From UHGV virus genome UHGV-0350163: 35,997 nt of DNA; one strand, given 5' to 3'. The DNA is from a virus. A model generated the notes under the pieces. It was not told where the DNA came from. It did no database searches and saw only the letters and a list, made by a program, of their open reading frames with translations. Positions 14,189 through 27,960 of this stretch are shown here, in pieces (position 1 is the stretch's first letter; every line of letters begins with the position of its first letter). The position numbers and the translations under genes are program-made.

Positions 14189-15139
14189 TTACTCCGTCGT
14201 ACCATCAGAACCAAATGCCATCTGCCAGAAGCCGTAACCGCCGTTACAGCGCGCTTCGGCACCAAACAGGAACTTCTTACGCTTGAACACGTTGTCGCTG
14301 TTGTAGTCCGTCTGCTCCACAAAAACAGGCTTTTTACGCAGCTGATAAATCAGCGGTTTCACCGGTTTGGTGGTGTCAAACAGGAACCACGCAGAATCCG
14401 ACGCCAGCTCCGGCATCACCAGCACGTCGGCGGTACTGCGGTACGGGTTCGGCGTACCGTCCGGGAACTTCTCGGCGGTCATCAGGTAGTTCGCGTCATC
14501 TTCCAGCGCCGGTGGCACAACCAGCAGATTCGGGCGAATTTTGAGGGATGCGCCTTCGTCATCTTTCAGGCTGCGCATGGCAGTACGGGCGGCACCGTAG
14601 GAGGCTTTCGCCTCGGCAAGCGAGCCAACTTTGAGTTTTTTGGTGCCTTTATTGGACACCGATTTACCGGCGACCAGGTGGTCGGTATCAAAGAACATCT
14701 GGCCGTCGTAACAGGGATTGGTAAAACCGTTACTGATAAGGGACGCCACAATATCTGCCGGGAGTTCTGCCGCCGACTGTCCGGCTCCTTTTGCCTGAAG
14801 GGCATAGCCCATAATCTGGTCGTCCTCGATGTCGTTACGATCGACTTCAACCGTGGCTTCCCAGTCCTTGTTACGGATGGTGTAGTTAAATGCCGCCAGT
14901 GATTTAACGACCTTGTCGCCAATCCACTCGCGCATTTTCGGGAAACGACTTAACCAGCTGTAGTCGTTTTCCTTGCCGTTTGATGGCACTTCCATTGCCA
15001 CCTTCTGCCAGTCAGTTGGCGACTGGTCGAAGGCTTTCTGGAAGGTGGCCTTCAGATTGATAAAAATCTGTTTGACGTTTTTAACGTTGACTAACACGTT
15101 TTGCTCCTTAACTGAAATGAACCCAGACGCCATCGCCAC
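14189..15139 (-). CDS. Major head subunit (Mu T-like)
   Basis: 316 aa ORF following the I protease/scaffold gene. Confidence 0.8.
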   Translation of the reverse strand: MAMASGFISVKEQNVLVNVKNVKQIFINLKATFQKAFDQSPTDWQKVAMEVPSNGKENDYSWLSRFPKMREWIGDKVVKSLAAFNYTIRNKDWEATVEVDRNDIEDDQIMGYALQAKGAGQSAAELPADIVASLISNGFTNPCYDGQMFFDTDHLVAGKSVSNKGTKKLKVGSLAEAKASYGAARTAMRSLKDDEGASLKIRPNLLVVPPALEDDANYLMTAEKFPDGTPNPYRSTADVLVMPELASDSAWFLFDTTKPVKPLIYQLRKKPVFVEQTDYNSDNVFKRKKFLFGAEARCNGGYGFWQMAFGSDGTTE

Positions 15140-15503
15140 AGATGCCGATCACTTTCCCGGCGACAGGACGGGCGCTGCTGTTGTCGGTTTTTGCCACGGT
15201 TACGCTGTCTTCCACGTAGCACAGCTTGCCGACCTGCGATTGTGTGACCGGGTCTGAGGTGCTGTTCACCATCAGAAAATCTTTGCCGCAACGCACCAGA
15301 ACGGTGACATCGCCATCGCTGCCGGTACTGTTATCCGCCCAGCCATCAGACACGCCCAGCGTAATCTGTGAGGCCGTGGCACTGGCCGGAACGGCATAAC
15401 CGGATGCGTTAACGGCCACCATATGACCACCAAAAATTTCGGTCGCAGCGGCAACCGGCACCGGGTTCAGTTCGCCGTCACGGTAGGGGGTATTGCGATC
15501 CAT
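15108..15503 (-). CDS. Hypothetical head-associated protein
   Basis: 131 aa ORF between I and T; overlaps the annotated T start by about 30 nt, so one of the two starts is probably internal. Confidence 0.5.
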   Translation of the reverse strand: MDRNTPYRDGELNPVPVAAATEIFGGHMVAVNASGYAVPASATASQITLGVSDGWADNSTGSDGDVTVLVRCGKDFLMVNSTSDPVTQSQVGKLCYVEDSVTVAKTDNSSARPVAGKVIGICGDGVWVHFS

Positions 15504-16673
15504 TTACTCATCTCCTGCGTAACGGGCGACATCCTCTGGATCGACGCCCATCATTGAACAAATGGCGATATCGACATCGACGTCATCGCCGGTTTTAATC
15601 TGCGCCGGGGCAGGCGACGGCGTTTTGGGGGCTTTGCCGCCGGTCTGTGTCTGACTGAGCGCAACAAGTTTCGGTGCGTTCTCCAGCCAGGACTTAAAGC
15701 CGTTGATATCGCGGCTGGCGTAATCTTTCGCCCAGTCTTCCTGTGCCGGAAGCAGTCGCCCGTCAGACAGCGCCGCCTGAATCAGTGTCCCGGCTTCGGC
15801 CTCACCGGACTGTTGCGCCAGTGCGGCATAACGCCCCTGAAGTTCTTCGAAGGCAGCAAGGGAAATGTGTTTTGACGGGTCATAGGCACTGGCTGACAGG
15901 CTGGCGATTTGCTCATCTTTCTGATTCAGCAGGGCCAGCAGGCTGACGGATGCCGCCGCCGTTCCCTGACCGTTCGAAATCATGTCAACGACCTTTTGCA
16001 GCTCGTTTTTGATATCTTCCGCCGTTGAGGTAACCGGGAGGTTAAGCATCCAGCGCAGACTGGACAGCAAATCGTTTAACAGTTCTTCATCCACTGTTGT
16101 GGTCTCCGTTTCAGTTGACAGACTCGCCAGACGGCTGGCCGCAGCCAGCATGACCGCGTCCATACCGTCCAGCGCCGGGGTATTGGTCAGTGCGGCGTGT
16201 AACAGTTCAATGACTTCGCCGCGCCGGTTGTATCCAAATACCGGGGAAATAAATTTGTACTCACCGGCGGCAATCATGGCCGCCGCGTTCTCCGTCCACT
16301 CCACACCGGTGGCATACAAGCCCGAACCTTCACGCCATTCCACCTGGCTGAACCAGCCCGCCGCCGGGGCGGGCTTGCCGTTGTTTACGGCGCGCAGCGT
16401 CTGATGTTCGTAATCAATGACAAAAGGCGTGGCGCGGGCGGCCACCTGTGCGACAAGCTGCGCGGCCAGTTCGGCAGTCAGCACCCATTTACCGCTTTCG
16501 ACTTCATCGGTATGTGGGCGACCATCCACCGCGCTGAACTCGCCTGCCGGTAACAGCTGGATTTCGCTGTGGGTTGCTTTAGTAATTTCGAGGCTTAACG
16601 CCGCAATTTTCAGTTTCATACGCGGCATGATGACGGAAGGGGAAGCCGGGGTACTGTGGAGGGTGTTCAGCAC
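15504..16673 (-). CDS. Head maturation protease / scaffold (Mu I-like)
   Basis: 389 aa ORF. True start is probably an internal Met (MPRMKLKIAALS, near 16628). Confidence 0.75.
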   Translation of the reverse strand: MLNTLHSTPASPSVIMPRMKLKIAALSLEITKATHSEIQLLPAGEFSAVDGRPHTDEVESGKWVLTAELAAQLVAQVAARATPFVIDYEHQTLRAVNNGKPAPAAGWFSQVEWREGSGLYATGVEWTENAAAMIAAGEYKFISPVFGYNRRGEVIELLHAALTNTPALDGMDAVMLAAASRLASLSTETETTTVDEELLNDLLSSLRWMLNLPVTSTAEDIKNELQKVVDMISNGQGTAAASVSLLALLNQKDEQIASLSASAYDPSKHISLAAFEELQGRYAALAQQSGEAEAGTLIQAALSDGRLLPAQEDWAKDYASRDINGFKSWLENAPKLVALSQTQTGGKAPKTPSPAPAQIKTGDDVDVDIAICSMMGVDPEDVARYAGDE

Positions 16674-16711
16674 CCTGCCATAACGCGAAAGGATAAAAAG
16701 GGAAATAAAAC

Positions 16712-16736
16712 CGTTTTTAAAACCCTTTTAAAAACG
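16712..16736. promoter_or_regulatory. Perfect 11-bp inverted repeat CGTTTTTAAAA-CCC-TTTTAAAAACG upstream of the I gene; candidate late-activator site / late promoter
   Basis: Read directly; lies in the 155-bp G-I intergenic gap where Mu has its C-dependent I promoter (established knowledge for Mu; inference here). Confidence 0.35.
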
Positions 16737-16740
16737 ATTC

Positions 16741-16806
16741 TGACGGCATTTATGGGGCGCGGTGCTGTTATGCCTCATCCGTGAGGCGTTTATGCCGTCA
16801 CAGCCG
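16741..16806 (-). terminator. Nested stem-loops (TGACGGCAT...ATGCCGTCA; GCCTCA-TCCG-TGAGGC) after gene G; candidate terminator of the lysis-to-G transcript
   Basis: Inverted repeats read from sequence; on the minus strand followed by a U-rich stretch (GAAUCGUUUUUAAAAGGGUUUU). Confidence 0.35.
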
Positions 16807-16828
16807 ATTACAGCGCGTTTGTCGCCAT

Positions 16829-17380
16829 TCAGTCAATCACACGCGCAAAATAGCGGTTTGCGGTGTTCTCCAGCTCGTCGATGTCGTCCTGCACGAGCTG
16901 AAGGAAGGGGCGCGCGGGCATGTTGACCGTATATGCCCCGACAGTTGCGCTCTGCACAAAATTACTGTTGCGCTTTTTCACAAAGCGGGTGCTGACGCTG
17001 CCGTTTTTGTACTGTTTAAAATACAGGTTCTGCGTCCGTGCCTGATGGCGGATTTCGCCGCCTTCGTTGTGGATACGGGCATAACGGACGTTTGTCCCGA
17101 CCGTGGCCTCGTTATTGTTAACCGCAGAGCGGATACTGGCAGCCAGTCGCCCGGACTTCTGAAGGATTTGCCCGGGGCCGCGTCGCTTCGCATAAGCCGG
17201 ACTCCAGCCCATCCATTTCGGGCGACCCTGTTGTTCAAAGTTAGTCTCAACCGCATCCAGCATGGAACCCGCAAGTGCCGTCATCAGGTCGTGCCGGTCC
17301 TTCACGGAACGAATCAGTTTCCCCAGCGTGGTGTTATACGCGCTTAAATCAATCTTAATATCCAGTTTACCGTTGCTCAT
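16829..17380 (-). CDS. Virion morphogenesis protein (Mu G-like)
   Basis: 183 aa ORF coupled to the upstream F-like gene. Confidence 0.7.
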   Translation of the reverse strand: MSNGKLDIKIDLSAYNTTLGKLIRSVKDRHDLMTALAGSMLDAVETNFEQQGRPKWMGWSPAYAKRRGPGQILQKSGRLAASIRSAVNNNEATVGTNVRYARIHNEGGEIRHQARTQNLYFKQYKNGSVSTRFVKKRNSNFVQSATVGAYTVNMPARPFLQLVQDDIDELENTANRYFARVID

Positions 17381-18543
17381 GATGCCTCCGGGGTATCCTG
17401 CATAACCCAGTCTGTCAGCGCGTCATCCTCAACTGTCACCACCGACCAGCGGTCGCCCGACTGTAACGCATACCGCCACGCGTTGCCGTCCTGTGTGACA
17501 TGCTCCGCCCGTTCGATGGTCTGCTGCATCAGCACATAGTCGGCGGCGGTCGGGGGTGTGTTTGTTGCACTGAGGCGTTTCATGACGTCAGCCGTAAGGT
17601 TTACCGTCTGCCGTGCAGCGCCCGTGGCAGCGACCTGTTCCGGTGAACGGATGGCCAGCGGATATCGCTGGCGCGCATCCAGTTCGCTGACGTTCGCCAG
17701 TCCCCGGGCAAAATCCGGCCCGGTCAGGGTGCCGGTGACATACTGGCGGGCGCTACGGTAATCATATTTTTCCAGTTCCGGCTGCCATGCCACCCGACCG
17801 GGATTAAATCCGAAGCCCGGGTCGGCGGTATACACGGAGCCATCCGGCATCTTCAGCCCCATCGTTCTGATGGTCTGGCCCGGCTGGTCATATTCCTGTT
17901 CAACCTCAACCAGTCGCCCCTCGCTGCTCTGCACCGTCAGGCCGTATTTCTCCACATCAGACGCCGAACGCGCACGGATACGGCAGCGGCATCCGTATCC
18001 GTCCGGCGCGTAGAAATACTCCCAGACAGGGTCATCCGCCCGGGCGGTAAAACCGTTCAGGGCGGCGTGTTTCGGGCGGGTGTGAAGGTCCATCACCGCC
18101 ACGCGCTCAAAATAAGGCCGGTCAGCCACGTTCGCCATCTGTTGCTGATAACGCCCGGCGTTATATGACGACTGAATGTTGGTATCAAATATCGTGCGCA
18201 ACCGGCGCGGCGTCAGTTGTCTGCCGTGCAGTTCGCCGGTGTCCTCGTCCACAATCAGTTTTTTACCCAGCCAGCCTTTTGATTCCAGCAGTGGTTCCAG
18301 TTGTGCAGCAAACTCCCGGAACGTCCCGCCGTCAGCCAGTGTGGCCGTCAGGCCATCACGGATATCCTTCAGCACATCCAGTTTCAGCACGCCCGCCACA
18401 GTGAACGCCCGGGCGTTGGCGATGTCCTTCACATCGTGCCAGCGGAAGCCGATAACGTATCCCTTGCTTTCGAAATACTTAATCGCTTCTTCCGGCTTCA
18501 GGGTGTACGCATAACCCAGGTCAACATCGTCAGCTGTCGGCAT
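17377..18543 (-). CDS. Head morphogenesis protein (Mu F / gp30-like)
   Basis: 388 aa ORF directly after the portal gene. Confidence 0.8.
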   Translation of the reverse strand: MPTADDVDLGYAYTLKPEEAIKYFESKGYVIGFRWHDVKDIANARAFTVAGVLKLDVLKDIRDGLTATLADGGTFREFAAQLEPLLESKGWLGKKLIVDEDTGELHGRQLTPRRLRTIFDTNIQSSYNAGRYQQQMANVADRPYFERVAVMDLHTRPKHAALNGFTARADDPVWEYFYAPDGYGCRCRIRARSASDVEKYGLTVQSSEGRLVEVEQEYDQPGQTIRTMGLKMPDGSVYTADPGFGFNPGRVAWQPELEKYDYRSARQYVTGTLTGPDFARGLANVSELDARQRYPLAIRSPEQVAATGAARQTVNLTADVMKRLSATNTPPTAADYVLMQQTIERAEHVTQDGNAWRYALQSGDRWSVVTVEDDALTDWVMQDTPEAS

Positions 18544-20125
18544 TCAGTCGCCCCCAGATATCCGCCACAAAGAATGCCTGTGTCAGCAACTGCCGCAGCG
18601 TTTCATCCGGCAGCTCCGGCCACGCTTCCGCCAGTACGTTCATAGCCTCGTCTGCATCCCGGCCTTCCTGTATGGCCTGCACCAGTGGGGCCACCAGTTC
18701 GTTCATCCCCTGCGCGATGGCCTCTGCCGGAAGCTCTGCCCGGTCGATGGCGTTCTGTGCCGGGTCGTCCTCCCCGTTGTCCTGCTGACTGAGTGCGACG
18801 ACATTCAGCCGCTCACGCAACTGGCTGAGGCCCGCCTGCACAGGGAGACGCTGTGCCACCGGCACCAGTACCTCTTCGCCGTCTTTCGGGGTGGGGATAC
18901 CGGTTTTTTTGCGTACCCACGACGCCGGGATATCCTTCATCCCCACATTGTTGAGCAGCACGCTGACGGCTTCCGCCACGCCCTTAATGTCGGCTTCCTG
19001 CTGCACATCAAACACCAGTCGCGGAAGACGGCGTGACGGGATATCCTGCCAGCCGTTGAGACTGGCCATCATCTGTATCAGACTGCTGAACATGCCGGAC
19101 AGCTGGCGTGCATCAGCGGTCAGAATGTCGTGCCGGACCTCGTTATGGACATTACCCAGTGCGTTGGTGGAGGTTTTACCGTCGGCCTGGCTGGTCAGCG
19201 TACTGCCCAGAATCACTTTTGAGGTGGTACGCTCCGCCCATTCCACCATCGACATGAATGCCTCCGGTCCGCCGGATGCGGCTTCCTTGAACTCGATTTC
19301 GTTACCCTGCGGCAGGGCTGCCACCGCTTCATGCCCCAGATTGACCAGCGCCTCAAGAATGTTGTCCCGGTCCGCGTCACTGGTGCCCTGTGCATAGTAC
19401 GCAATGCGCGCTGGAAGACCGTAAATCTCCAGAAATTCCGCCATATCACGCAGCGCGAAGTTTTTAAACAGATACGGCCAGACCAGTACGCGGAACAGGC
19501 CGGATGAACCCAGGAACCCCGACCGGGCGTTGTAACGGTGAACCAGCCAGCCGAACGGCCACAATGCGGAACCGTCCTTACCGTCTTCCCCACGGTTGCC
19601 GTCATCCAGCCGGAGTTCGTCATTGTGTTCCGGCAGAGTTATGAACCAGTTATGCGGGCGCAGCGTCACCGCATCCGGTAACCATGTTTTATCCACGAAC
19701 GCCCAGCTGATTTCCTGACAGCTGAAGCCGTAACCGACACCGCTCATCCCGTTGAGGATGATGTCCTCCATGTCCGGGATGCCGTGCAGCCATTCATCCA
19801 CGGCGGCGGCCAGCTCCTTTTCTGCCTTCGAGGCATTGCGGGGCGGCTCCACCGACCAGTCCAGCGTCAGCAACGCTTTTTTGCGCTTTTCCATCTCGGC
19901 GAACAGATGGCCATCACGTTCTTCCATATCCGCAAACAGCATCGCCTGCGCCGGAAGATAACCGCGTTCGGCTGCTTCCAGAATACGCGGCAGTTTTCTG
20001 ATGTTCAGACCACGGGACGGGTGATCGGGATAGATGCGCAGTCGTTCCGCCACTCTGACCGACTGCGTTGTTTTGAGTGCCTCACGTTTCAGCGGGCGTC
20101 CGTAAATATCAACAAGCTGTGCCAT
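18530..20125 (-). CDS. Portal protein (Mu gp29-like)
   Basis: 531 aa ORF immediately after the large terminase gene. Confidence 0.8.
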   Translation of the reverse strand: MAQLVDIYGRPLKREALKTTQSVRVAERLRIYPDHPSRGLNIRKLPRILEAAERGYLPAQAMLFADMEERDGHLFAEMEKRKKALLTLDWSVEPPRNASKAEKELAAAVDEWLHGIPDMEDIILNGMSGVGYGFSCQEISWAFVDKTWLPDAVTLRPHNWFITLPEHNDELRLDDGNRGEDGKDGSALWPFGWLVHRYNARSGFLGSSGLFRVLVWPYLFKNFALRDMAEFLEIYGLPARIAYYAQGTSDADRDNILEALVNLGHEAVAALPQGNEIEFKEAASGGPEAFMSMVEWAERTTSKVILGSTLTSQADGKTSTNALGNVHNEVRHDILTADARQLSGMFSSLIQMMASLNGWQDIPSRRLPRLVFDVQQEADIKGVAEAVSVLLNNVGMKDIPASWVRKKTGIPTPKDGEEVLVPVAQRLPVQAGLSQLRERLNVVALSQQDNGEDDPAQNAIDRAELPAEAIAQGMNELVAPLVQAIQEGRDADEAMNVLAEAWPELPDETLRQLLTQAFFVADIWGRLNADS

Positions 20126-20128
20126 TAA

Positions 20129-21826
20129 TTACCATCCTCCTGAACCAAAACGCCCGCCACGGTCACGCCCGCTGCTGCGTGGGGTGTGTATCTGAAATTT
20201 TGCGCTGCGCGATACCGCCAGCGTCCACAGCATGTGCAGACAGTCCGGGCCATCATCGTGGTCGGCTTTGGGGTAGTGGCGCAGCTGGTCAATCAGCGTC
20301 TGATGTGCCGGACTGATGCGGATCAGGCCATTGGCCATATGCGGCTGAAGGGACTCAATACGCAGCGCTTTATCCTCCAGCGGGATGACCGGCAGCGCCG
20401 GAACCGGCACGCCCAGCGCCGCCGAACGCTCAACCAGCACGGTACGCAGAAACTCCTGAAACTGGACGGACTCAAACGACCAGCACAGACAGTGGTATTC
20501 CCGCTGATACTTAATCACGTCTTCGATAAGTTTGTTTGGCAGACGTCGGCGGATATCGGCTTCAACCACATCCAGAATGCCGGTAAAGCGGTTAAAGCCC
20601 CCCACGAGAATGGCCGACGGGTCGCGGTTTTTGTTTTTCTTCCCGAGACTGGGGTCAACAGCACCATAAAACACCCATTCATCAAGACGGTTAACCCAGA
20701 ACTTAATGCAGCCCGCAAACAGCGCATCTTCACCGCTGACCGGGTCGTTCTGGTATTCAGAATCAAAGGTGTCATGACCGTCACGGACACGGATTTTCAT
20801 CAGCGCCAGCAGGGGACGCGCCGCCCATGACACCACCGACCCGGCGAGCATCTCAGCCTCGTTCTGTCGGTAAAGTGCCTCCGCTGCTTCCGGCTGTTTG
20901 TTGCGGATGAGTTCTTCCCACTCGTCCCACAGCTTCATATTGGCAGGCCACTGAATAACGGCCTTAAAGCGGGCTGTTTTCCACATCGGGTTATTCAGCG
21001 TGCGCGACAGCACGGAGTCGTAATGCAGGATGGTTCCGATATAAATAATATCGGTTTTACCGCCAGCCTCACCCAGCGGCATCACGGTTTTGGTGAGCCA
21101 GTCATGCAGCTTGTCGCGCTGCTCCGGGTTACGCACCATCTCGTCGTTCTCGATATCGTCGAGGATGACCAAGTCAGGACGGTACGGACCGTGGCGCAGA
21201 CCACGCAGTTTTTTACCACTACCGGCAACGGTCACCTTGATATTGTTGGCCGTGACGATGGTCCCCATACGCCAGACGCGACCCTGCCCGCACACCTCCG
21301 GGAAATCGTTTTTTAAACGGGGGTTAAACTCCAGTTCAGCCTTGATGGCTTCCAGCATCGGATAAGCCTGGTCGATACTGTCCATAATGATGACCGGGTA
21401 ATGCTTAATGGCCCGGATAATGGTCCACAGGGTAAACAGCTGAGTCACCAGCGTGGATTTTGCTTCACCACGGGGCGCGGCGATGGCGTCGTTCTCCGGG
21501 TCCGGGCTTGCCACAACCTGTGGCAGACGGCTGAACAGGTATTTATGCAGCTCGCTTTTTGCCGGGTTGCGGACGTAGTGCGGGAAATAATTTTCGACAA
21601 AATAATCATAGCCCGTCACCGGATCGCAGACTGCCGCCCGGCGGGCCTGTGTGGCCTGTGGGTTAACATCGAACCCCAGACATTCAGCCTCAATGGTCTG
21701 GCGGAGGTTGGCGATGTACTCCTGCAGGCTTCTCTGAAACTCTTTAATGGAAAGTTTACGTTTTGCCACGTCACACCTGCGCTGCTTCTGCCTGCGCTTT
21801 TTCGAGACGTGCGCAGGCGATATCAA
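20129..21826 (-). CDS. Terminase large subunit (Mu gp28-like)
   Basis: 565 aa ORF as in the track. Real start may be the GTG at 21769, 1 nt after the methyltransferase stop and preceded by AGGTG. Confidence 0.8.
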   Translation of the reverse strand: MISPAHVSKKRRQKQRRCDVAKRKLSIKEFQRSLQEYIANLRQTIEAECLGFDVNPQATQARRAAVCDPVTGYDYFVENYFPHYVRNPAKSELHKYLFSRLPQVVASPDPENDAIAAPRGEAKSTLVTQLFTLWTIIRAIKHYPVIIMDSIDQAYPMLEAIKAELEFNPRLKNDFPEVCGQGRVWRMGTIVTANNIKVTVAGSGKKLRGLRHGPYRPDLVILDDIENDEMVRNPEQRDKLHDWLTKTVMPLGEAGGKTDIIYIGTILHYDSVLSRTLNNPMWKTARFKAVIQWPANMKLWDEWEELIRNKQPEAAEALYRQNEAEMLAGSVVSWAARPLLALMKIRVRDGHDTFDSEYQNDPVSGEDALFAGCIKFWVNRLDEWVFYGAVDPSLGKKNKNRDPSAILVGGFNRFTGILDVVEADIRRRLPNKLIEDVIKYQREYHCLCWSFESVQFQEFLRTVLVERSAALGVPVPALPVIPLEDKALRIESLQPHMANGLIRISPAHQTLIDQLRHYPKADHDDGPDCLHMLWTLAVSRSAKFQIHTPRSSGRDRGGRFGSGGW

Positions 21827-22511
21827 AATACTGGTTAGTCATTTCAATGCCGGTAAACCGTCCGCCACGGGCAAGCACAGGGATGGCGGTGGTGCCGCTT
21901 CCCATAAACGGATCGAGGACGTGCGCATCCGGTGCCAGCGGTTTAACCAGCTCGGCCATCAGCTGAACCGGCTTTGCGGTCATGTGCAGTTTTTCAGACG
22001 GGACAACACGCTGCGTAATCACACCCGGGAACGGGCCACCGTGCGGGCATTTGTCGAGTTTTCCGTTGCTGCCCCAGACCACATACTCTGCCTGATGCCG
22101 GAAATAGCCGGTGTGTGGCGCACGGGAAGCAAGCGTTTTATCCCAGACAACCAGACCACGCCACAGCACACCACCGGCCTGAAATGCATCGGTAAGCGCT
22201 GGTAGTTGTCGCCAGTCACTGAACACCATGAAATAACCGCCGGGATTCAGCCTGTGCAATGCATGAGAAATCCACATGGAACACCAGAACGCCCAGCTGC
22301 GCTGGTCGCGGTTATCGCCGGTGAACTCGGCATACTGGGTGTGACCGACATACTTGTCCGAAGGGGCCATGCTGCGGTCTGATTTGTGTGTGCCGCCACT
22401 GCTGTAAGGCGGGTCGGTAATGACGGCATCAAAACGTTCAGATAACGCTGACAGCACATCAAGAACATCACCGCAATACAACGTTGCGTTACCAATAATC
22501 TGTTTTTGCAT
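21771..22511 (-). CDS. DNA methyltransferase, beta-class N6-adenine/N4-cytosine type (orphan)
   Basis: 246 aa; DPPY catalytic motif near the N-terminus (ITDPPYSSGG) and SAM-binding motif near the C-terminus (LDPFMGSGTT); this IV-before-I order defines the beta class. No adjacent restriction endonuclease. Confidence 0.85.
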   Translation of the reverse strand: MQKQIIGNATLYCGDVLDVLSALSERFDAVITDPPYSSGGTHKSDRSMAPSDKYVGHTQYAEFTGDNRDQRSWAFWCSMWISHALHRLNPGGYFMVFSDWRQLPALTDAFQAGGVLWRGLVVWDKTLASRAPHTGYFRHQAEYVVWGSNGKLDKCPHGGPFPGVITQRVVPSEKLHMTAKPVQLMAELVKPLAPDAHVLDPFMGSGTTAIPVLARGGRFTGIEMTNQYFDIACARLEKAQAEAAQV

Positions 22512-22557
22512 TACAAATCCCGAATATCAGACGGCCCGGAAAACCGGGCCGCTGTGG

Positions 22558-23058
22558 TTAACTGAAATTATCCTCAAGCTCTTTAGCGAAGCCTTCGAGC
22601 ACCTCAAGAAACGGGGCATACTGTGCCGGGTGACGCTCCTTGATGAACGCGCCGAGCCGCTGCACCACTTCCAGTGCCGTGGCGAGTCGGTCGGTTTCCG
22701 GCAGGATTTTTTTACTGCTGGCCACCGCCTTACTGAGACTGTCAGACAGACTTGCCAGCAGTTCGACGGACTCCTGCGGCGGGATGTCCGGGTTCTGGTT
22801 CAGCCGTTCAAGCGTCGTCTGACACTTCACCACCAGACTGGTAAGCACGGTGCGGGCGACACTTTCCAGCCCGTCACCGGCGAGCGCGTGCGCGGCTCGC
22901 AGCTTGTCCCAGTCGTCACCGTTCTTCATCGCCTGCGTTTTCCAGCGCCGCGCGGTGTCGTGCGGCACGGCGTACTTCATGGCGACGATATCCAGCGGAA
23001 GCTGGTCAAAGATGTACCCGTTACGGACTTTGTCCCTGATATCCTGTGACCACGCCAT
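22558..23058 (-). CDS. Mu gp27-like protein (putative small terminase subunit)
   Basis: 166 aa ORF upstream of the terminase region. Confidence 0.6.
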   Translation of the reverse strand: MAWSQDIRDKVRNGYIFDQLPLDIVAMKYAVPHDTARRWKTQAMKNGDDWDKLRAAHALAGDGLESVARTVLTSLVVKCQTTLERLNQNPDIPPQESVELLASLSDSLSKAVASSKKILPETDRLATALEVVQRLGAFIKERHPAQYAPFLEVLEGFAKELEDNFS

Positions 23059-23264
23059 TAAGTGACCTTCTGAGCCTGTTCAATCAGGCATTTAACTTCG
23101 TCGGGATTTTCAAGAACATACACGTTTTTCCCGGTATCCAGCTCAATGATCGTGCCACCATATGCACCACACTGACGGTAAAAATGGGTGATGCGTTCAG
23201 CGACTACCATGACAGCGCTGGTGATCCCTGAGCCTGCGCATTCTGTAAATCTGATAATGCTCAC
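23058..23264 (-). CDS. Hypothetical small protein
   Basis: 68 aa ORF between lipoprotein gene and gp27-like gene. Confidence 0.4.
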   Translation of the reverse strand: MSIIRFTECAGSGITSAVMVVAERITHFYRQCGAYGGTIIELDTGKNVYVLENPDEVKCLIEQAQKVT

Positions 23265-23285
23265 TGTGTCAGACCTTCAAAAAAA

Positions 23286-23468
23286 TCAGTTCTGCGAACA
23301 CTGCCGGATGCCATCAACAATCCGGCAGACCTGCGCCGCCGCGTCAAACAGCTGGCCCGCCCTGTTAATGTCTGTGCATCCCGCCGGAAGCAACATCACC
23401 AGAAACAGGGCCAGAACACAGCGCGCGGCTTTACGTGGCGTTCTGTGGGTCCAGTGCTGACGCGTCAT
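23286..23468 (-). CDS. Small lipoprotein, candidate outer-membrane spanin
   Basis: 60 aa with signal peptide and lipobox (LLPAGC); start overlaps endolysin stop. Confidence 0.45.
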   Translation of the reverse strand: MTRQHWTHRTPRKAARCVLALFLVMLLPAGCTDINRAGQLFDAAAQVCRIVDGIRQCSQN

Positions 23469-24010
23469 ACCGTCACGCGCTCCTTCAGCCAGCCATAAAC
23501 AAACGATTCGTTAGCCTCGCGTTTCTCTGCCAGCTCCAGATAGCGGTCACCCTGCGTGCAGTTCAGGGCTGTCAGCATTACCCGTTCACCGTCCTGACCG
23601 CGATTATTCAGGAATGCGCGCAATGCACTGATGGTACGAGGCCCGATGCGTCCGTCTGCATCCATATCCGGGTACAGCTTCCCGCGCAGGTTGAAAACGT
23701 TCAGCCAGCGTTGGAGCATTTTTGACGCCACGGTTGGCCCCATATTCACACCGGTATCACACAGCTCTGCGGCAATATCAGGGGATAATGCGGCGACCTG
23801 GTCAAATCGCGGGCCATACCAGTAATCGGCTTCAAGGATGTCCAGCGCCTGCTCGCGGGTTAAATCGCGCATATCACCACGGTATCCGTGGGCACGGGCG
23901 ACTTTTTCCGTAATGCCCCATTTGGTCGGACCGCCCTTATCATCCGGGTGATTGACATAACCACCTTCTTTGCCCAGGACTTCATCAAAAATTTTATCTT
24001 TTGATTTCAT
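23465..24010 (-). CDS. Endolysin (GH108-like lysozyme with peptidoglycan-binding domain)
   Basis: 181 aa; N-terminal LGKEGGYVNHPDDKGGPTKWGIT matches the GH108 catalytic EGGY motif (from memory). Confidence 0.75.
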   Translation of the reverse strand: MKSKDKIFDEVLGKEGGYVNHPDDKGGPTKWGITEKVARAHGYRGDMRDLTREQALDILEADYWYGPRFDQVAALSPDIAAELCDTGVNMGPTVASKMLQRWLNVFNLRGKLYPDMDADGRIGPRTISALRAFLNNRGQDGERVMLTALNCTQGDRYLELAEKREANESFVYGWLKERVTV

Positions 24011-24290
24011 GTGGATGCCTCAGTAACGAAAGGATTTTTGACAAATTCCCGTGCGCCCACACGATAAGCGCACAGAAAACCAGATTCAGCGCCACAACCA
24101 GCCAGCTGGAATGTGTGTACGTACCGGACAGCCAGCGGAACGGGATGATGACGTAGCCGAGCATCAGCCAGTACGCCAGCCAGGTAATCATCGGTTTATG
24201 CGCTGCACCGTGGCGGCGATACACAAACAACCCCAGCACAATGGCGAGACACAGCCAGACGTTCACGATACCGGCAAGGCTACTTTCCAT
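23994..24290 (-). CDS. Lysis-associated membrane protein (3 predicted TM segments)
   Basis: 98 aa hydrophobic ORF between holin-like gene and endolysin. Confidence 0.45.
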   Translation of the reverse strand: MESSLAGIVNVWLCLAIVLGLFVYRRHGAAHKPMITWLAYWLMLGYVIIPFRWLSGTYTHSSWLVVALNLVFCALIVWAHGNLSKILSLLRHPHEIKR

Positions 24291-24672
24291 TTCCCCCCCC
24301 TCCGCCGCGCAGTCTGGAAAACAGGCCGAACAGCGATGAAATTTCCTGTTGATAAAGAAAGGTCAGTATCTTGATGGATAACGCCGAGACACCGACCGCA
24401 CACAATGCATCGAGTGGCTTGTCGTTGTAGTGGGTCAGCCACTGCATCAGTGACGCAGCCACGCCAGCCCCCAGAACGCCAACCACAAACGCGACGAGCA
24501 GGTGGATGGCCATTCGCCAGACCGGGATTTCTTTCTGCTGCGTGACAACAAAAAGCGCCCCGGCAAACGCGCCCACCACGACCCCGAAATCGGTATTGGT
24601 GAGAAGACCAAACACACTGGCACCACCGATGGTGACTGCCACAGCTCCGCCGCCTGATAAGGGTTCAGACAT
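24280..24672 (-). CDS. Holin-like membrane protein
   Basis: Start moved to internal ATG at 24672 (MSEPLSGGG), preceded by AGGAGA; about 130 aa with several TM segments. Confidence 0.5.
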   Translation of the reverse strand: MSEPLSGGGAVAVTIGGASVFGLLTNTDFGVVVGAFAGALFVVTQQKEIPVWRMAIHLLVAFVVGVLGAGVAASLMQWLTHYNDKPLDALCAVGVSALSIKILTFLYQQEISSLFGLFSRLRGGGGGNGK

Positions 24673-24859
24673 GAGTTTCTCCTGTAAATCTGAGCCACTG
24701 ACGGCCCGTAAATAACACCCTGTCAAAGGCACAGAAGCCTTTTGCAGGGCGCTATCCCTTAAAGTGCCTTGTGGTCTGAGTGGACAGGGTAAACGGTCTG
24801 GTGTGGTGGGTACTGCTGGGGGTGTTCAGCACCCCCGGCAGGTTGATTATCTGGATGGG

Positions 24860-25147
24860 TTAAAGAGAAGCGAGTTTTAATGGTGGCTTATAACATGCCC
24901 GCGCCAGCAGGTTAGCTCTTTCCACGGCATTACGCATTTCCCGTTCTGCGTCAATCATTCTGTTTACGGCTGACAGCACTTCATCATGATTCGTTACTGA
25001 TTCCGGGCTTTGGGCCTGTTTCGCCAGGTAACTGGATAAATTGCACATTTCAGCATGTCGGCGACGGGCTGCATCCCGGGCCTTGTCTGAAAATGCGGTA
25101 TATTCACCGAGTACTGCATAGTCGATATCGGTGTCAGAACGCATCAT
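24860..25147 (-). CDS. Hypothetical protein (first gene after the activator)
   Basis: 95 aa ORF; no recognisable motif. Confidence 0.45.
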   Translation of the reverse strand: MMRSDTDIDYAVLGEYTAFSDKARDAARRRHAEMCNLSSYLAKQAQSPESVTNHDEVLSAVNRMIDAEREMRNAVERANLLARACYKPPLKLASL

Positions 25148-25174
25148 TTCGTGTCTCCTTTTTTCTGAGGCCCA

Positions 25175-25642
25175 TTAATCAAAAAGCCCCACCTGGGTGG
25201 GGCTTTTCAGCGAAGTCTGTTTTTGTCGTCGGTGTATCAGCTGCCATGCGTACCGGTCTGAAATCCCGTAACGGGGACAGAGTAGTGCCAGCGCCTGCCG
25301 GTGTGAGCATCCGTCTTTTACATGCTGCTGTAAATCTGCCATAAAACGGGTGTTACGCAGGGCACGTAACGCATGATCGCAACGGGGAATGTAAAACGGC
25401 GCACCGCCAAGAAAGCGGATCAGTTTGTTGATTTCGTCTTCGGTCAGCACATCATGTAACAGGGCATGGACACCGCCGGTGCGTTCGGCGTGTGCGCCGG
25501 TTTTACCGCTTAACGTCACGCCACCAAAAGAACGGATTAACCGGGTCAGGGCGGGGAAGCCAATCACGCCAATCAGTTGCTGCACGGAATCGGGCAGCAG
25601 TGCCTGCGCATCGCGAAGATCTGTTTCACTGAAGGTCTGCAT
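25175..25642 (-). CDS. Mor/C-family transcriptional activator
   Basis: 155 aa; contains GGAPFYIP motif and C-terminal HTH-like segment (YGISDRYAWQLI) resembling Mu Mor/C (from memory). Only one such homologue seen. Confidence 0.75.
   Translation of the reverse strand: MQTFSETDLRDAQALLPDSVQQLIGVIGFPALTRLIRSFGGVTLSGKTGAHAERTGGVHALLHDVLTEDEINKLIRFLGGAPFYIPRCDHALRALRNTRFMADLQQHVKDGCSHRQALALLCPRYGISDRYAWQLIHRRQKQTSLKSPTQVGLFD
25181..25207 (-). terminator. A-tract / GC-rich hairpin / T-tract overlapping the 3' end of the Mor/C-like gene
   Basis: AAAAAGCCCCACC-TG-GGTGGGGCTTTT read from sequence; the minus-strand transcript would end within a few nt of the stop codon. Confidence 0.5.
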
Positions 25643-25700
25643 GATGGCGTCTCCGGTAGTAACTTACTGTTATTATAGCCATACATGATCGCCTGTACAG
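25643..25700 (-). promoter_or_regulatory. Candidate promoter for the Mor/C-like gene (perfect -10 TATAAT at 25673-25678 on minus strand)
   Basis: TATAAT about 30 nt upstream of the ATG, GGAG RBS 9 nt upstream of ATG; lies immediately downstream of the terminator at 25701-25730. No convincing -35. Confidence 0.35.
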
Positions 25701-25730
25701 ACCACAAAAAAGCCCCTACATGGCAGGGGC
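25701..25730 (-). terminator. Intrinsic terminator after the AT-rich moron (stem GCCCCT/AGGGGC, 7-nt loop, then TTTTTTGTGG on minus strand)
   Basis: Read directly from sequence. Confidence 0.65.
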
Positions 25731-25740
25731 GGCTATTAAG

Positions 25741-26244
25741 TTACTCTGGAATCTTGATGTTACAGGCTTTGATAAATTTATTAACAGCGGTTGTTGAACC
25801 TGTCGGTGTTACATTAAACGATGCGCCTCGTTCTTCACTCGGTTCTTTTACACCAGCTAAAACACGTTTTTGGGCTTTTCGAAGATAAGATAACAACTCT
25901 TTGATTTTTTGTTCGTCCTCTATTTTATAAATATACATTTTTTCATTTCGTGCAGCGAGTACCCCTGTGGTCTTTACTGCTGGAAATTCGTCTATCCTAA
26001 ATATTAAATCTTTTGATGAACCGAATAACGCAATGTTAACTTTATCTGTTTCTTTTGTAATACCAGCGAATAGTGAGTCATTCGAACAGTCTAAAGCAAT
26101 CCCAAAATCCATTGTTCCAATACCCACCATCATGGCTGTTTGTTGATCATCAAAAGCATCTTTTTGTACCCATGTGTGCCATTCAGCAACGGCAGGAAAA
26201 GACAAAATGAACGCTACTAAAAGAAAATACCGTTTTTTAATCAT
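25741..26244 (-). CDS. Secreted protein of unknown function (AT-rich moron)
   Basis: 167 aa with N-terminal signal peptide (MIKKRYFLLVAFILSFPAVA); strong SD AAGGAGGAG; ATG overlaps gemA stop (ATGA); coding sequence is markedly AT-rich. Confidence 0.7.
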   Translation of the reverse strand: MIKKRYFLLVAFILSFPAVAEWHTWVQKDAFDDQQTAMMVGIGTMDFGIALDCSNDSLFAGITKETDKVNIALFGSSKDLIFRIDEFPAVKTTGVLAARNEKMYIYKIEDEQKIKELLSYLRKAQKRVLAGVKEPSEERGASFNVTPTGSTTAVNKFIKACNIKIPE

Positions 26245-26639
26245 TTACTCCTCCTTCTTGAATCTTTAACCAGCGCCACCATCACCCCGAAAAGCTGTTC
26301 ATCCGTCAGCCATTCGATCACATGTTGCTTATACATGTGAGATGCCAGTCCTTCCGCATACCCCCAGGAACGACCGGCATCAGCCAGCAACGCTTCAATT
26401 TTGGATAATACCGATTTTCTGCTCATTGCAACACGGGGGCGGCGACCTTTACCGGCGGGTGCCTTGCGCGGGAATCCCTGTTCGTGCATGTATTCCCGGA
26501 TGATGCGCAGTTCATTAAGATTGCAGCGTGTGGTGCTGGTTTTACCGGTCAGGCGGGCCAGCGTCTGGCGATAAAGGGCATCATCCCACCCCAGATACGC
26601 CTGACCGGCTTTAATGGCCCCGATCATCTTTTTCAGCAT
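26241..26639 (-). CDS. gemA: GemA-like protein (Mu gp16-like)
   Basis: ORF track gives 26241..26738; start placed at internal MLKKMIGAIKAG; position upstream of the activator as in Mu. Confidence 0.6.
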   Translation of the reverse strand: MLKKMIGAIKAGQAYLGWDDALYRQTLARLTGKTSTTRCNLNELRIIREYMHEQGFPRKAPAGKGRRPRVAMSRKSVLSKIEALLADAGRSWGYAEGLASHMYKQHVIEWLTDEQLFGVMVALVKDSRRRSK

Positions 26640-26925
26640 GTTTGTTATCCTCAAAACGTACGGTAAAACGTGAAACGCCAATCCCTGACAAGAACGCGGC
26701 GGCACGATCAAGAGACAGCCACGTCTTGTAATCGCCACGGCGTTCCTGTAGAAAATAGGACACCCCAGCGCGGCGATTCACAGCGAAGAGGTGATACACA
26801 CCACCGAACCGCTGCACGACGAACTCATCCACGCCACCGCTTTCAGCCTGTTGCCTGAAAGCTGCCATTCCGATTTGTTCAATCTTCATAATGACCAAAA
26901 CACTACTTTTGGCAGACCAAAACAC
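26611..26925 (-). CDS. Hypothetical protein (start uncertain)
   Basis: ORF with GTG start at 26925 or ATG at 26889; 3' end overlaps gemA start. Confidence 0.3.
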   Translation of the reverse strand: MFWSAKSSVLVIMKIEQIGMAAFRQQAESGGVDEFVVQRFGGVYHLFAVNRRAGVSYFLQERRGDYKTWLSLDRAAAFLSGIGVSRFTVRFEDNKHAEKDDRGH

Positions 26926-26938
26926 ATGTTTTGGTCTG
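26913..26938. promoter_or_regulatory. Perfect 12-bp inverted repeat CAGACCAAAACA-CA-TGTTTTGGTCTG with a third half-site GACCAAAACA at 26893-26902; candidate operator
   Basis: Read directly; sits in the intergenic gap upstream of the gemA/moron unit. Confidence 0.45.
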
Positions 26939-26956
26939 CGTTTGATTACTGTTCAA

Positions 26957-27175
26957 TCAACCCGCGTAATCGGGGCCGTGTTCCCATCTGGCATCGAGTA
27001 TTTCCGTTCCATCTGTCCGGCATGGGTTATCAAGTGCCATTTTTCCGCACTCCCCGTACTCGACATCGACAAAATCAGCAATATCATTGTCCGTTGCGTT
27101 ATCAGGAACGTCGATTTCAACCGTTACGGTGATAGTTTTCATCAGGTTGTTACTCCGTGATTCAGAAAATTTCAT
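26957..27175 (-). CDS. Small acidic protein of unknown function
   Basis: 72 aa (or about 61 aa from MKTITVTV), rich in Asp/Glu; 8 nt downstream of the secreted-protein gene. Confidence 0.45.
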   Translation of the reverse strand: MKFSESRSNNLMKTITVTVEIDVPDNATDNDIADFVDVEYGECGKMALDNPCRTDGTEILDARWEHGPDYAG

Positions 27176-27183
27176 GCCGGAAC

Positions 27184-27594
27184 TCAGTATGTGAAATAGA
27201 CAGTTGCCACGCCGTTATAGTGATCAAACGACACGGCGTTTACCTCATAACTGGCCGGGAGCTTCGAACCAAGAACGTATCCGGGCCACGTTTTCCATGG
27301 AATTTCTCTGCTCTCACTGTCGCCATATACCGTACATCCCAGTGAGCCTACAGCTTCATAAGAACGCTTACCGCACGTTATGAACCCCAGATTTAGCTTA
27401 CTGCCCTTAACAGAAATCGGGAGAGCACTGGCTGATGCGTTAGCAGCGTCCTGCTCCTGTTGGCTTGCGATATTCGCAGAGTTCGCAGCAGCTGCGGCAG
27501 CCGTAGTCGCAGCGGCAGATGCCACAATAACTGCTGAAGCCTGTGCCTGTTGGGTAACGGTCAGCAATGCCGCCACAAAAACCATTTTCTTCAC
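27184..27594 (-). CDS. Secreted protein with Ala-rich low-complexity linker
   Basis: 136 aa, GTG start preceded by AGGAGGT; signal peptide MKKMVFVAALLTVTQQAQA, then Ala/Ser/Thr-rich segment and a ~75 aa C-terminal domain. Confidence 0.6.
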   Translation of the reverse strand: MKKMVFVAALLTVTQQAQASAVIVASAAATTAAAAAANSANIASQQEQDAANASASALPISVKGSKLNLGFITCGKRSYEAVGSLGCTVYGDSESREIPWKTWPGYVLGSKLPASYEVNAVSFDHYNGVATVYFTY

Positions 27595-27609
27595 CTGGCA
27601 CCTCCTTTA

Positions 27610-27783
27610 CATACCGTGATTTTTCCTGCGGTTTTGCGCCGCGCTGGGCTTTTTGCAACAGCTGTGCAACATCACCCCGCAACACCCCGTCAACCTCACT
27701 CGTCTGTTACTAATCCTCAACCATCGCCAGACCCCAACACCGTTTCTGCGAGCTAACAGAATTTTTGCCTTACGGTTTTTCAT
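27610..27783 (-). CDS. Small basic protein, paralogue B (58 aa), not in ORF track
   Basis: Hand-translated: MKNRKAKILLARRNGVGVWRWLRISNRRVRLTGCCGVMLHSCCKKPSAAQNRRKNHGM. ATG overlaps the stop of paralogue A (ATGA). Confidence 0.4.
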
Positions 27784-27956
27784 CGTACTGCGTACCCTTT
27801 CTTCCGCCTGTTCTGTGACGCAGTAGGCTTACGCTTTGCGGCAAAAGCCACCTGACCAAATGGATGGAGTACCGCTATCTTATGGTTGCTAATAACCAGC
27901 TCCACCACACGCACAGGCCGCTGTAAAAGAAGTCGTTTTGCTTTACGGTTTTTCAT
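27783..27956 (-). CDS. Small basic protein, paralogue A (58 aa), not in ORF track
   Basis: Hand-translated: MKNRKAKRLLLQRPVRVVELVISNHKIAVLHPFGQVAFAAKRKPTASQNRRKKGYAVR. AGGAG 9 nt upstream of ATG. First 24 nt nearly identical to paralogue B. Confidence 0.4.
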
Positions 27957-27960
27957 CGTT

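What the first reader, a model, noticed from the sequence alone, without database searches (positions are those of the whole stretch)
21771..22511. Orphan beta-class DNA methyltransferase inside the packaging module
A 246-aa methyltransferase with DPPY (motif IV) preceding FMGSGTT (motif I) sits between the gp27-like gene and the large terminase, a position occupied by no such gene in Mu as I recall it. With no nuclease partner it is a candidate self-protection (anti-restriction) methylase replacing Mom-type modification. The large terminase may start at a GTG 1 nt after its stop.
Basis: partly seen in the sequence, partly recalled or inferred. Interest (0 to 1): 0.5.

Follow-up and report, generated by a model that had tools for sequence, protein, structure and literature searches.

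The report
Late-operon orphan methylase in Mu-like prophage
A complete Mu-like prophage of E. coli carries an optional, intact DNA methyltransferase gene just upstream of its large terminase gene. It most likely methylates phage DNA late in infection to escape host restriction, which is a real but ordinary and already annotated kind of phage accessory gene.

Summary
Window 21771..22511 (-) encodes a 246-aa beta-class amino-DNA methyltransferase (PF01555, E 7.6e-24). DPPY lies at residues 33-36 and FMGSGTT at 202-208. It sits between a DUF1804 (gp27-position) gene and the large terminase, whose GTG start lies 1 nt after the methylase stop.

The window holds a whole 35.7-kb transposable prophage (110..35857, TG...CA) inserted in hyfH. 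It has no Mom, Com, Gin or nuclease partner. Phage Mu has gp27 directly next to gp28 and com-mom at its right end.

The gene is a 743-bp optional cassette (21780..22522). Of 55 complete E. coli genomes with this block, 35 carry it (including EPEC E2348/69) and about 20 have 7 nt in its place. It is under purifying selection (dN/dS 0.06-0.26).

Homologues (45-70% identity) recur in late operons of unrelated temperate phages or directly behind a Com translational regulator.

Best reading: a late-expressed, self-protective (anti-restriction) methylase, functionally analogous to Mom. Target sequence and base are unknown.

This is an ordinary member of a very large phage methylase family (phrog_67) and is already annotated in RefSeq. 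Interest is low. A minority reading is that the minimal target-recognition region and the Com-linked homologues point to relaxed specificity.

The parts
21771..22511 (-). Orphan beta-class DNA methyltransferase CDS (246 aa, ATG...TGA)
   Evidence: AF2 model pLDDT 83.6 matches M1.HpyAVI, CcrM and M.BceJIV
22404..22415 (-). Motif IV DPPY (residues 33-36), catalytic
   Evidence: read from sequence; T32-D33-P34-P35-Y36-S37-S38-G39 invariant in 38 homologues
21888..21908 (-). Motif I FMGSGTT (residues 202-208), AdoMet binding
   Evidence: read from sequence; D200-P201-F202-M203-G204-S205 invariant
21780..22522 (-). 743-nt optional cassette: methylase RBS plus all of the CDS except its last two codons and stop. 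In methylase-less prophages of the same lineage it is replaced by 7 nt (TGTATAC).
   Evidence: alignment of the window junctions with E. coli TUM1881; 35 of 55 genomes cover 80% or more of the query, and the 11 listed sub-80% records lack the gene
21767..21779 (-). Backbone junction CAGGTGTGACGTG: SD-like AGGTG, the methylase's last two codons and its TGA stop, 1 nt, then the terminase GTG start. The spacing suggests translational coupling (inferred).
   Evidence: junction conserved in L004-L016, L018, L026
20129..21769 (-). Large terminase (D3112/SuMu type), GTG start
   Evidence: phrog_38 E 3e-143; 69% to Klebsiella phage ST405-OXA48phi1.1, 64% SuMu, 61% D3112; PGAP start
22558..23058 (-). 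DUF1804 DNA-binding protein at the gp27 / small-terminase position
   Evidence: PF08822 E 1.3e-52; phrog_756
22531..22552 (-). GC-rich hairpin (GGCCCGG-TTTT-CCGGGCC) in the DUF1804-methylase spacer. It belongs to the backbone, not to the cassette.
   Evidence: fold z = -2.95; identical in the methylase-less TUM1881 junction; a GCCCGG/CCGGGC stem with a different loop is kept in L015 and L018 (7 bp in L015, 6 bp in L018); not called a terminator by the scan
18530..20125 (-). Portal (Portal_Mu / DUF935)
   Evidence: PF06074 E 5e-95
25175..25642 (-). Mor/C-family transcription activator at the head of the late (lysis, packaging, head) gene string
   Evidence: PF08765; gene order
110..35857 (-). 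Complete transposable (Mu-like) prophage, 5'-TG...CA-3', inserted in hyfH. Repressor, Ner-like gene, MuA and MuB lie at the high-coordinate end and the tail fibre at the low-coordinate end.
   Evidence: joined flanks match intact hyfH at 99.6% in 4,288 genomes; ends read; gene content

Best explanation
The gene encodes an active, solitary, AdoMet-dependent beta-class DNA amino-methyltransferase, most probably N6-adenine. It is carried as an optional cassette inside the late operon of a Mu-like (D3112/SuMu head-type) prophage.

Shown:
- The motifs and fold are intact.
- The gene is under purifying selection.
- It lies in a tight same-strand gene string running from the Mor/C-type activator through lysis genes, DUF1804, methylase, TerL and portal.
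- No sigma-70-like promoter was detected immediately upstream.
- Its stop codon sits inside the terminase ribosome-binding region.

Inferred:
- It is silent in the lysogen and is made only late in lytic growth, together with the packaging proteins.
- It then methylates the replicated phage copies shortly before headful packaging.
- Injected DNA is therefore pre-protected against restriction enzymes in the next host whose sites overlap its target.

This is the role Mom plays in Mu, and this prophage lacks com-mom. Target sequence and modified base are not determinable here.
For: - Family and fold: PF01555 at 85 bits; profile match to M1.HpyAVI over the full length, E 5e-29; Foldseek top hits are all beta-class amino-MTases at probability 1.0.
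- Conservation: 62 invariant columns, including DPPYSSG and DPFMGS.
- Selection and composition: dN/dS 0.06-0.26 against relatives, compared with 0.02-0.09 for TerL and DUF1804; GC 0.56, like its neighbours.
- No partner nuclease.
- The whole prophage lies within the window and lacks Mom, Com and Gin, whereas Mu has com-mom at its right end.
- No sigma-70-like promoter between 20000 and 25670.
- The gene string is tightly packed and the stop/start junction is conserved.
- Homologues at 57-58% identity lie directly behind a Com homologue in Acidovorax/Verminephrobacter genomes and in viral contigs. The same holds at 54% identity in the P2-like phage Chuche. This is the Mu com-mom layout.
- Other homologues sit in late operons of unrelated phages:
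  - between holin and endolysin in a Salmonella Mu-like prophage;
  - directly upstream of a Mu gp28-type TerL (L033/L054), and between TerL and portal (L027);
  - in the order lysis-MTase-HNH-TerS-TerL in an E. coli lambdoid prophage;
  - in a P2-like late operon.
- Precedent: Mu-like prophages that lack mom carry adenine methylases instead, and those are silent in lysogens (PMC3299994). M.EcoGII is likewise silent in its prophage (PMC5778455).
Against: - No experimental data exist for this protein or any close relative, so activity, base (m6A or m4C) and target site are unknown.
- Late-only expression is inferred from gene order and from a simple promoter scan, not measured.
- About 20 of 55 E. 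coli prophages of the same lineage do without the gene, so any benefit is conditional.
- A methylase with one fixed specific site protects only against restriction enzymes that share that site.
- There is no Com gene here, so the tight control seen for some homologues is not demonstrably present.
Confidence: 0.7

Rival explanations
1. Packaging regulator: the methylase modifies the pac region or other terminase-recognised DNA, so that cleavage and packaging depend on methylation, as adenine methylation controls pac cleavage in phage P1 (own knowledge: Sternberg and Coulby 1990).
For: The gene lies immediately upstream of TerL with spacing that suggests translational coupling. Homologues sit next to terminase genes in several unrelated phages.
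Against: About 20 E. coli genomes carry the same DUF1804-TerL-portal block at 96-97% identity with the methylase cleanly absent and an identical TerL start region. Homologues accompany three unrelated terminase types (D3112-type, Mu gp28-type, HK97/P2-type). They also occur away from terminases, behind Com or between holin and endolysin.
Confidence: 0.05
2. Lysogenic-conversion moron: the methylase is expressed from the prophage and methylates the host chromosome, acting as an epigenetic regulator or protecting the host genome.
For: The gene is an optional cassette in a variable slot, as morons are. Orphan methylases can regulate host genes (general knowledge).
Against: No promoter-like site precedes it. 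No terminator follows it, and its stop codon lies inside the TerL RBS. It is co-oriented and tightly packed within the late operon. Com-controlled homologues imply that expression is restricted rather than constitutive.
Confidence: 0.08
3. Inactive remnant: the ORF is intact but no longer methylates DNA.
For: The gene has been lost from about a third of related prophages. A clustered patch of substitutions at residues 74-110 separates two allele groups.
Against: All catalytic and cofactor motifs are invariant, dN/dS is well below 1, the full length is kept across 45-100% identity, and the predicted fold is confident.
Confidence: 0.04

Closest known systems
M1.HpyAVI (Helicobacter pylori HP0050; PDB 5HEK/5HFJ), a small beta-class N6-adenine methyltransferase
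   Same: Closest solved structure by sequence profile (E 5e-29, full-length alignment) and by fold (Foldseek E 5e-16). It has the same size class (232-240 aa against 246 aa) and the same motif order. Both have a flexible loop after DPPY and a short, poorly structured target-recognition region; here residues ~125-140 and ~150-175 have low pLDDT. M1.HpyAVI has relaxed specificity, GAGG/GGAG/GAAG (PMC5173035).
   Different: Only about 21-24% identical. M1.HpyAVI belongs to a restriction-modification locus, whereas this one is solitary and phage-borne. Nothing is known about this enzyme's target.
Mu Com-Mom DNA modification module
   Same: It is the proposed functional analogue: a late-expressed, self-protective adenine modification of a transposable phage. 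This prophage lacks com-mom, and homologues of this methylase sit directly behind Com in other phages.
   Different: There is no sequence relation to Mom. Mom makes N6-acetamido-adenine and belongs to the acyltransferase superfamily (PMC3299994). Mom lies at the right end under Com control, whereas this gene lies between DUF1804 and TerL with no Com.
Hia5 / Hin1523 / Nma1821, non-specific adenine methyltransferases of Mu-like prophages (PMC3299994)
   Same: They are methylases that take the place of Mom in Mu-like prophages, are silent in lysogens, and are presumed anti-restriction.
   Different: Those enzymes are Dam-related, with the closest structures EcoDam, DpnM and T4Dam. They sit at the mom position behind com (PMC3299994). 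This one is beta-class (PF01555) and sits in the packaging region.
M.EcoGII, non-specific beta-class prophage adenine methyltransferase (PMC5778455)
   Same: It is a beta-class, prophage-encoded orphan found in E. coli prophages and is not expressed in the lysogen.
   Different: It is 349 aa. A 352-aa prophage methylase (L001 41632-42690), which I take from its size and position, not by any test, to be of the M.EcoGII type, shares only the motif IV and motif I segments with this protein (BLASTP E 6e-08 over 56 residues). It is not a close relative.
Bordetella phage BPP-1 Bpm and Escherichia phage Chuche methyltransferase
   Same: These are the closest homologues in isolated phages: 53-54% identity over 94% of the length. 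Both are solitary phage methylases, and the Chuche gene follows a Com gene.
   Different: They are in different phage types (BPP-1 type not examined here; Chuche P2-like) and at different genome positions. I found no specificity data for either in the library searched.

Membership tests
Beta-class amino-DNA methyltransferases (Pfam PF01555 N6_N4_Mtase) | Profile score above the Pfam gathering threshold | tested here: met
   85.3 bits against a cut-off of 26.7, E 7.6e-24
Beta-class amino-DNA methyltransferases (Pfam PF01555 N6_N4_Mtase) | Motif IV (D/S)PP(Y/F) lies N-terminal to motif I FxGxG | tested here: met
   DPPY at residues 33-36 and FMGSG at 202-206; both invariant in 38 homologues
Beta-class amino-DNA methyltransferases (Pfam PF01555 N6_N4_Mtase) | Fold matches solved beta-class enzymes | tested here: met
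   AF2 pLDDT 83.6, pTM 0.84; Foldseek hits to M1.HpyAVI, CcrM, M.BceJIV, MboIIA, RsrI and PvuII, all at probability 1.0
Beta-class amino-DNA methyltransferases (Pfam PF01555 N6_N4_Mtase) | AdoMet-dependent methyl transfer to adenine N6 or cytosine N4 in DNA | not testable with these tools
   Needs expression plus SMRT or nanopore sequencing, or an in vitro assay. DPPY and the nearest structures favour N6-adenine, but a rotifer N4-cytosine enzyme also matches.
Solitary (orphan) phage methyltransferase | No cognate restriction endonuclease adjacent or elsewhere in the element | tested here: met
   The flanking genes are DUF1804 and TerL. No nuclease or defence model hit in neighbours or early ORFs. 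PGAP annotation of related prophages lists none.
Solitary (orphan) phage methyltransferase | Encoded within a phage genome | tested here: met
   Complete transposable prophage 110..35857 inserted in hyfH; phrog_67
Mu Com-Mom module | Homology to Mom | tested here: not met
   tblastn of Mu Mom against the window gives a best E of 1.1, which is noise
Mu Com-Mom module | Preceded by, and overlapping, a Com zinc-finger translational regulator | tested here: not met
   No Com homologue in the window, although homologues of this methylase elsewhere do follow Com
Hia5/Hin1523 non-specific adenine methyltransferases | Dam-related sequence family located at the mom position | tested here: not met
   The beta motif order is read from the sequence. 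The paper places Hia5 with EcoDam, DpnM and T4Dam and at the mom locus (PMC3299994). No direct sequence comparison was possible because no Hia5 sequence was held.
M.EcoGII family | Close full-length homology to the ~349-aa lambdoid-prophage enzyme | tested here: not met
   Only two short motif segments align with the 352-aa prophage methylase (L001 41632-42690) that I assumed, from its size and position, to be of the M.EcoGII type
Plasmid single-strand methyltransferases (NCBIfam PRK13699; which known enzymes this model covers was not checked) | Score above the NCBIfam cut-off | tested here: not met
   78 bits against a cut-off of 244
CcrM (NF050803) and YhdJ-type (PRK11524) | Score above the NCBIfam cut-off | tested here: not met
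   51 bits against 830, and 43 bits against 292

The most novel reading that the evidence does not exclude
This 246-aa subfamily may be a relaxed-specificity or near non-specific adenine methyltransferase. If so, it would be a third, independent and smaller solution to the 'Mom problem', after the Dam-like Hia5 family and the 349-aa M.EcoGII.

Hints, none decisive:
- The region where a target-recognition domain would lie is very short and poorly structured. The same is true of M1.HpyAVI, whose specificity is relaxed (PMC5173035).
- The DNA-facing hairpin (R130, P132, H133, G135, Y136, R138, H139, Q140) is invariant across hosts from Enterobacteriaceae to Burkholderiales. This is unlike families whose specificity diversifies.
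- Homologues are placed under Com control or buried in late operons, as expected for an enzyme that is harmful if made in the lysogen.
Probability: 0.15. Interest if true: 0.55.

Novelty: new member of a known kind. Interest (0 to 1): 0.2.

Why it matters
The finding adds little that is new. Phage-borne orphan methyltransferases that pre-protect DNA against restriction are a well-known kind. This exact protein is already in NCBI as 'site-specific DNA-methyltransferase' on 54 contigs, and a close allele of the gene is annotated in the prototype EPEC strain E2348/69.

Two results are modestly useful:
- The DUF1804|TerL junction of D3112/SuMu-type transposable phages is a variable accessory-gene slot. 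It shows a clean presence/absence polymorphism of the methylase within one E. coli prophage lineage, which offers natural isogenic pairs for testing the benefit of the gene.
- One methylase family recurs either under Com control or embedded in late operons across Mu-like, P2-like and lambdoid phages. This suggests a shared need to confine its expression to late lytic growth.

If the enzyme proved to have relaxed specificity, it would be a compact candidate tool enzyme.

Tried and rejected
- I recalled M.EcoGIX as a Mu-prophage enzyme. The literature shows it is plasmid-borne, so I dropped it.
- M.EcoGII as a close relative: a 352-aa prophage methylase that I assumed, from size and position, to be of the M.EcoGII type shares only the motifs with this protein. 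Rejected.
- Hia5/Hin1523 as the same family: those are Dam-like and lie at the mom locus. Rejected as family, kept as a functional precedent.
- Nucleotide search of isolated phages: no match of 85% or more. The element is known only as a prophage or viral contig.
- Specificity from the literature: searches for BPP-1 Bpm, for Com-linked methylases and late-operon methylases and for E2348/69 with Mu-like and methyltransferase gave nothing on this subfamily. The Shewanella and Mannheimia Mu-like phage papers concern other methylases. The Burkholderia paper by Smith and Jeddeloh (2005) is not held.
- The GC hairpin upstream of the methylase was considered as a cassette-borne regulatory element or a Com-target analogue. 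It is present unchanged in methylase-less prophages, so it belongs to the DUF1804-TerL spacer and not to the methylase.
- An alternative upstream TTG start for TerL (21826, 565 aa) would overlap the methylase by 56 nt. It was rejected in favour of the GTG at 21769 (PGAP calls, N-terminal homology, SD-like AGGTG).
- A 5-bp target duplication as in Mu: the uninterrupted hyfH sequence fits best a TTTT duplication flanking TG...CA ends. A 5-bp duplication needs one mismatch. Left unresolved as peripheral.
Full report
**Observation**

The minus strand of window 21771..22511 carries a 246-aa ORF with an ATG start and a TGA stop.
- It scores 85.3 bits on Pfam PF01555 N6_N4_Mtase (cut-off 26.7).
- It hits phrog_67 'DNA methyltransferase' at E 2.3e-53.
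- It matches PADLOC Type II methyltransferase model PDLC03321 at E 4.6e-64 over the whole profile.
- DPPY occupies residues 33-36 and FMGSGTT residues 202-208. Motif IV therefore precedes motif I, which is the beta arrangement.
- Both motifs are invariant in an alignment of 38 homologues spanning 54-92% identity.

The upstream gene (22558..23058) is a DUF1804 protein. The downstream genes are the large terminase and a Mu-type portal.

**Terminase start**

The GTG at 21769 lies 1 nt after the methylase TGA and is preceded by AGGTG. Three lines of evidence support it as the start:
- NCBI's pipeline calls this start in three related genomes.
- D3112 TerL residue 2 aligns at residue 5 counted from this GTG start, so the two N-termini agree within a few residues.
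- The junction ...CAGGTGTGACGTGGC... is kept in relatives down to about 75% methylase identity.

**Context**

The window holds an entire transposable prophage.
- Joining window 1-111 to 35863-35997 reconstitutes an intact hyfH gene, found at 99.6% identity in 4,288 E. coli genomes.
- The element spans about 110..35857 with 5'-TG...CA-3' ends.
- It has a repressor, a Ner-like gene, MuA and MuB at one end. GemA, a Mor/C-family activator, lysis genes, DUF1804, methylase, TerL, portal, head and contractile-tail genes follow, and a tail fibre gene sits about 200 nt from the other end.
- The terminase is of the D3112/SuMu type: 69% identity to Klebsiella phage ST405-OXA48phi1.1, 64% to SuMu and 61% to D3112. 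It is not the Mu gp28 type.
- tblastn with Mu Mom, Com and Gin finds nothing in the window.
- In Mu itself gp27 abuts gp28, and com-mom lies at the right end.
- No neighbour or early-region ORF matches a nuclease or a defence model.

The methylase is therefore solitary, and the prophage has no Mom-type system.

**An optional cassette in a variable slot**

- Fifty-five of 5,426 complete E. coli genomes carry the DUF1804-TerL block at 95-99% identity.
- Thirty-five of them cover 80% or more of the query. The records listed among these all carry the gene, annotated 'DNA-methyltransferase', and they include EPEC E2348/69, where the prophage interrupts eutC.
- The remaining 20 or so cover less than 80% of the query. 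The 11 of these that were listed are about 737 bp shorter and have no annotated methylase.
- Aligning one of these (TUM1881) shows that window 21780..22522 is replaced by TGTATAC.
- The upstream GC hairpin and the downstream CAGGTGTGACGTG are identical in both forms. The last two codons and the stop of the methylase therefore lie in backbone sequence that doubles as the terminase ribosome-binding region.
- In relatives without the methylase, the same DUF1804|TerL slot holds other small ORFs: three in the Klebsiella phage, a reverse-oriented orf25 in D3112 and a tiny ORF in SuMu.
- The exact protein is in NCBI on 54 contigs, in a 440-member 90% cluster.
- No isolated phage carries it at the nucleotide level.

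**Is it functional?**

- dN/dS against relatives is 0.06-0.26. The flanking TerL and DUF1804 give 0.02-0.09, and GC content matches the neighbours.
- An AlphaFold2 model (pLDDT 83.6, pTM 0.84) matches only beta-class amino-methyltransferases. The best hits are M1.HpyAVI, CcrM and M.BceJIV.
- M1.HpyAVI is also the best sequence-profile hit over the full length (E 5e-29).
- As in M1.HpyAVI, the stretch where a target-recognition domain would lie is short and poorly ordered. That enzyme has relaxed specificity (PMC5173035).
- The protein fails the NCBIfam cut-offs for CcrM, YhdJ-type and plasmid PRK13699 methylases.
- It shares only the motifs with a 352-aa prophage methylase that I assumed, from its size and position, to be of the M.EcoGII type.

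**What its relatives say**

Homologues at 45-70% identity occur in two recurring settings.

Directly behind a Com translational regulator, the Mu com-mom layout with the methylase in the place of Mom:
- P2-like phage Chuche.
- Acidovorax and Verminephrobacter genomes and several viral contigs.

Embedded in late operons:
- Between holin and endolysin in a Salmonella Mu-like prophage that shares this prophage's early genes.
- Overlapping the start of a Mu gp28-type TerL (L033/L054), between TerL and portal (L027), and upstream of a Mu gp27 homologue (L046).
- In the order lysis-MTase-HNH-TerS-TerL in an E. coli lambdoid prophage.
- In a P2-like late operon.

The association is with late timing rather than with any one terminase type.

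**Mechanism**

The best-supported reading is a late-expressed, self-protective methylase.
- No sigma-70-like promoter lies between 20000 and 25670.
- The gene is co-oriented and tightly packed with lysis and packaging genes downstream of the Mor/C activator.
- It would therefore be made only late in lytic growth and would modify replicated phage DNA before headful packaging.
- This would protect injected DNA from restriction in the next host, which is Mom's role.
- Published precedent: Mu-like prophages lacking mom carry adenine methylases that are silent in lysogens (PMC3299994). M.EcoGII is likewise silent in its prophage (PMC5778455).

Expression timing, activity, target base and target sequence are all inferred, not shown.

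**Rivals**

- A P1-like role in controlling packaging is unlikely. Natural methylase-less variants keep an identical packaging block, and homologues accompany unrelated terminases or none.
- A lysogen-expressed epigenetic moron is disfavoured by the lack of its own promoter and terminator.
- An inactive remnant is disfavoured by motif conservation and purifying selection.

**Comparison and novelty**

[quoted passage not shown] It works like Mom or Hia5 but belongs to neither family (membership tests). The minority reading worth a bench test is that this compact subfamily has relaxed specificity.

**Verdict**

Novelty and interest are low.

Noticed in passing
window 1-111 and 35858-35997; prophage 110..35857: The window is a complete 35.7-kb transposable prophage inserted in the hydrogenase-4 gene hyfH. 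The ends are TG...CA. The flanking duplication looks like TTTT (4 bp) rather than Mu's 5 bp, and a 5-bp duplication needs one mismatch.
   Followed up: partly
window 133, 155 (- strand), 178 (+) and 35709, 35760, 35834 (+): Copies of a CCCAGAA(T/A) motif cluster at both prophage ends, three per end, and two of them form a palindrome at 150-190. Only three further copies occur in the rest of the window. They are plausible transposase-binding sites.
   Followed up: no
window 22531-22552 (-): A strong GC hairpin (GGCCCGG-TTTT-CCGGGCC) lies between DUF1804 and the next gene. It is present with or without the methylase cassette. A GCCCGG/CCGGGC stem is kept with a different loop in diverged relatives, where a T-rich tail follows it. 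It may be a leaky terminator or an RNA-processing element between the small-terminase-position gene and TerL.
   Followed up: partly
window ~22182-22292 (methylase residues 74-110): Alleles with 99% identical flanks differ by a tight patch of about 14 substitutions in the helix after motif IV (AFWCSMWISHALHRLN in the window, AYWSTLWMSGAARLVR in the other group). This looks like a short recombination tract and accounts for the methylase being 92% identical where TerL is 99%.
   Followed up: partly
DUF1804|TerL junction in L037, L038, L039, L016-L018, L059: This junction is a hot spot for accessory genes in D3112/SuMu-type transposable phages. It holds small unknown ORFs, a reverse-oriented gene (D3112 orf25 and a 159-aa ORF in Salmonella), or extra ORFs ahead of the methylase.
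   Followed up: partly
window 25741-26244 (-), with a terminator-like hairpin at 25730-25712 and a promoter-like site at 25699-25672: A 167-aa ORF with a signal-peptide-like N-terminus (MIKKRYFLLVAFILSFPAVA...) belongs to phrog_19473 of unknown function. It lies between GemA and the Mor/C activator and is followed by a terminator-like hairpin and then the only sigma-70-like site in the region. It may be a lysogenic-conversion gene.
   Followed up: no
window 312-2690 (-): The tail-fibre gene has much lower GC (0.46 against 0.53 for the window). Its distal part is shared at 90-99% identity with prophages in about 2,500 E. coli genomes, which indicates mosaic exchange. This prophage has no tail-fibre assembly gene or invertible segment downstream, unlike the E2348/69 relative.
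   Followed up: no
L064 (E. coli E2348/69, NC_011601.1 2715507-2752134): The prototype EPEC strain carries this prophage family, methylase included, inserted in eutC. The insertion splits the ethanolamine ammonia-lyase gene.
   Followed up: no
window 30895-31212 (-): The early-region ORF matches phrog_2679 'Kil protein for bacterial septation inhibition' (E 1e-37).
   Followed up: no
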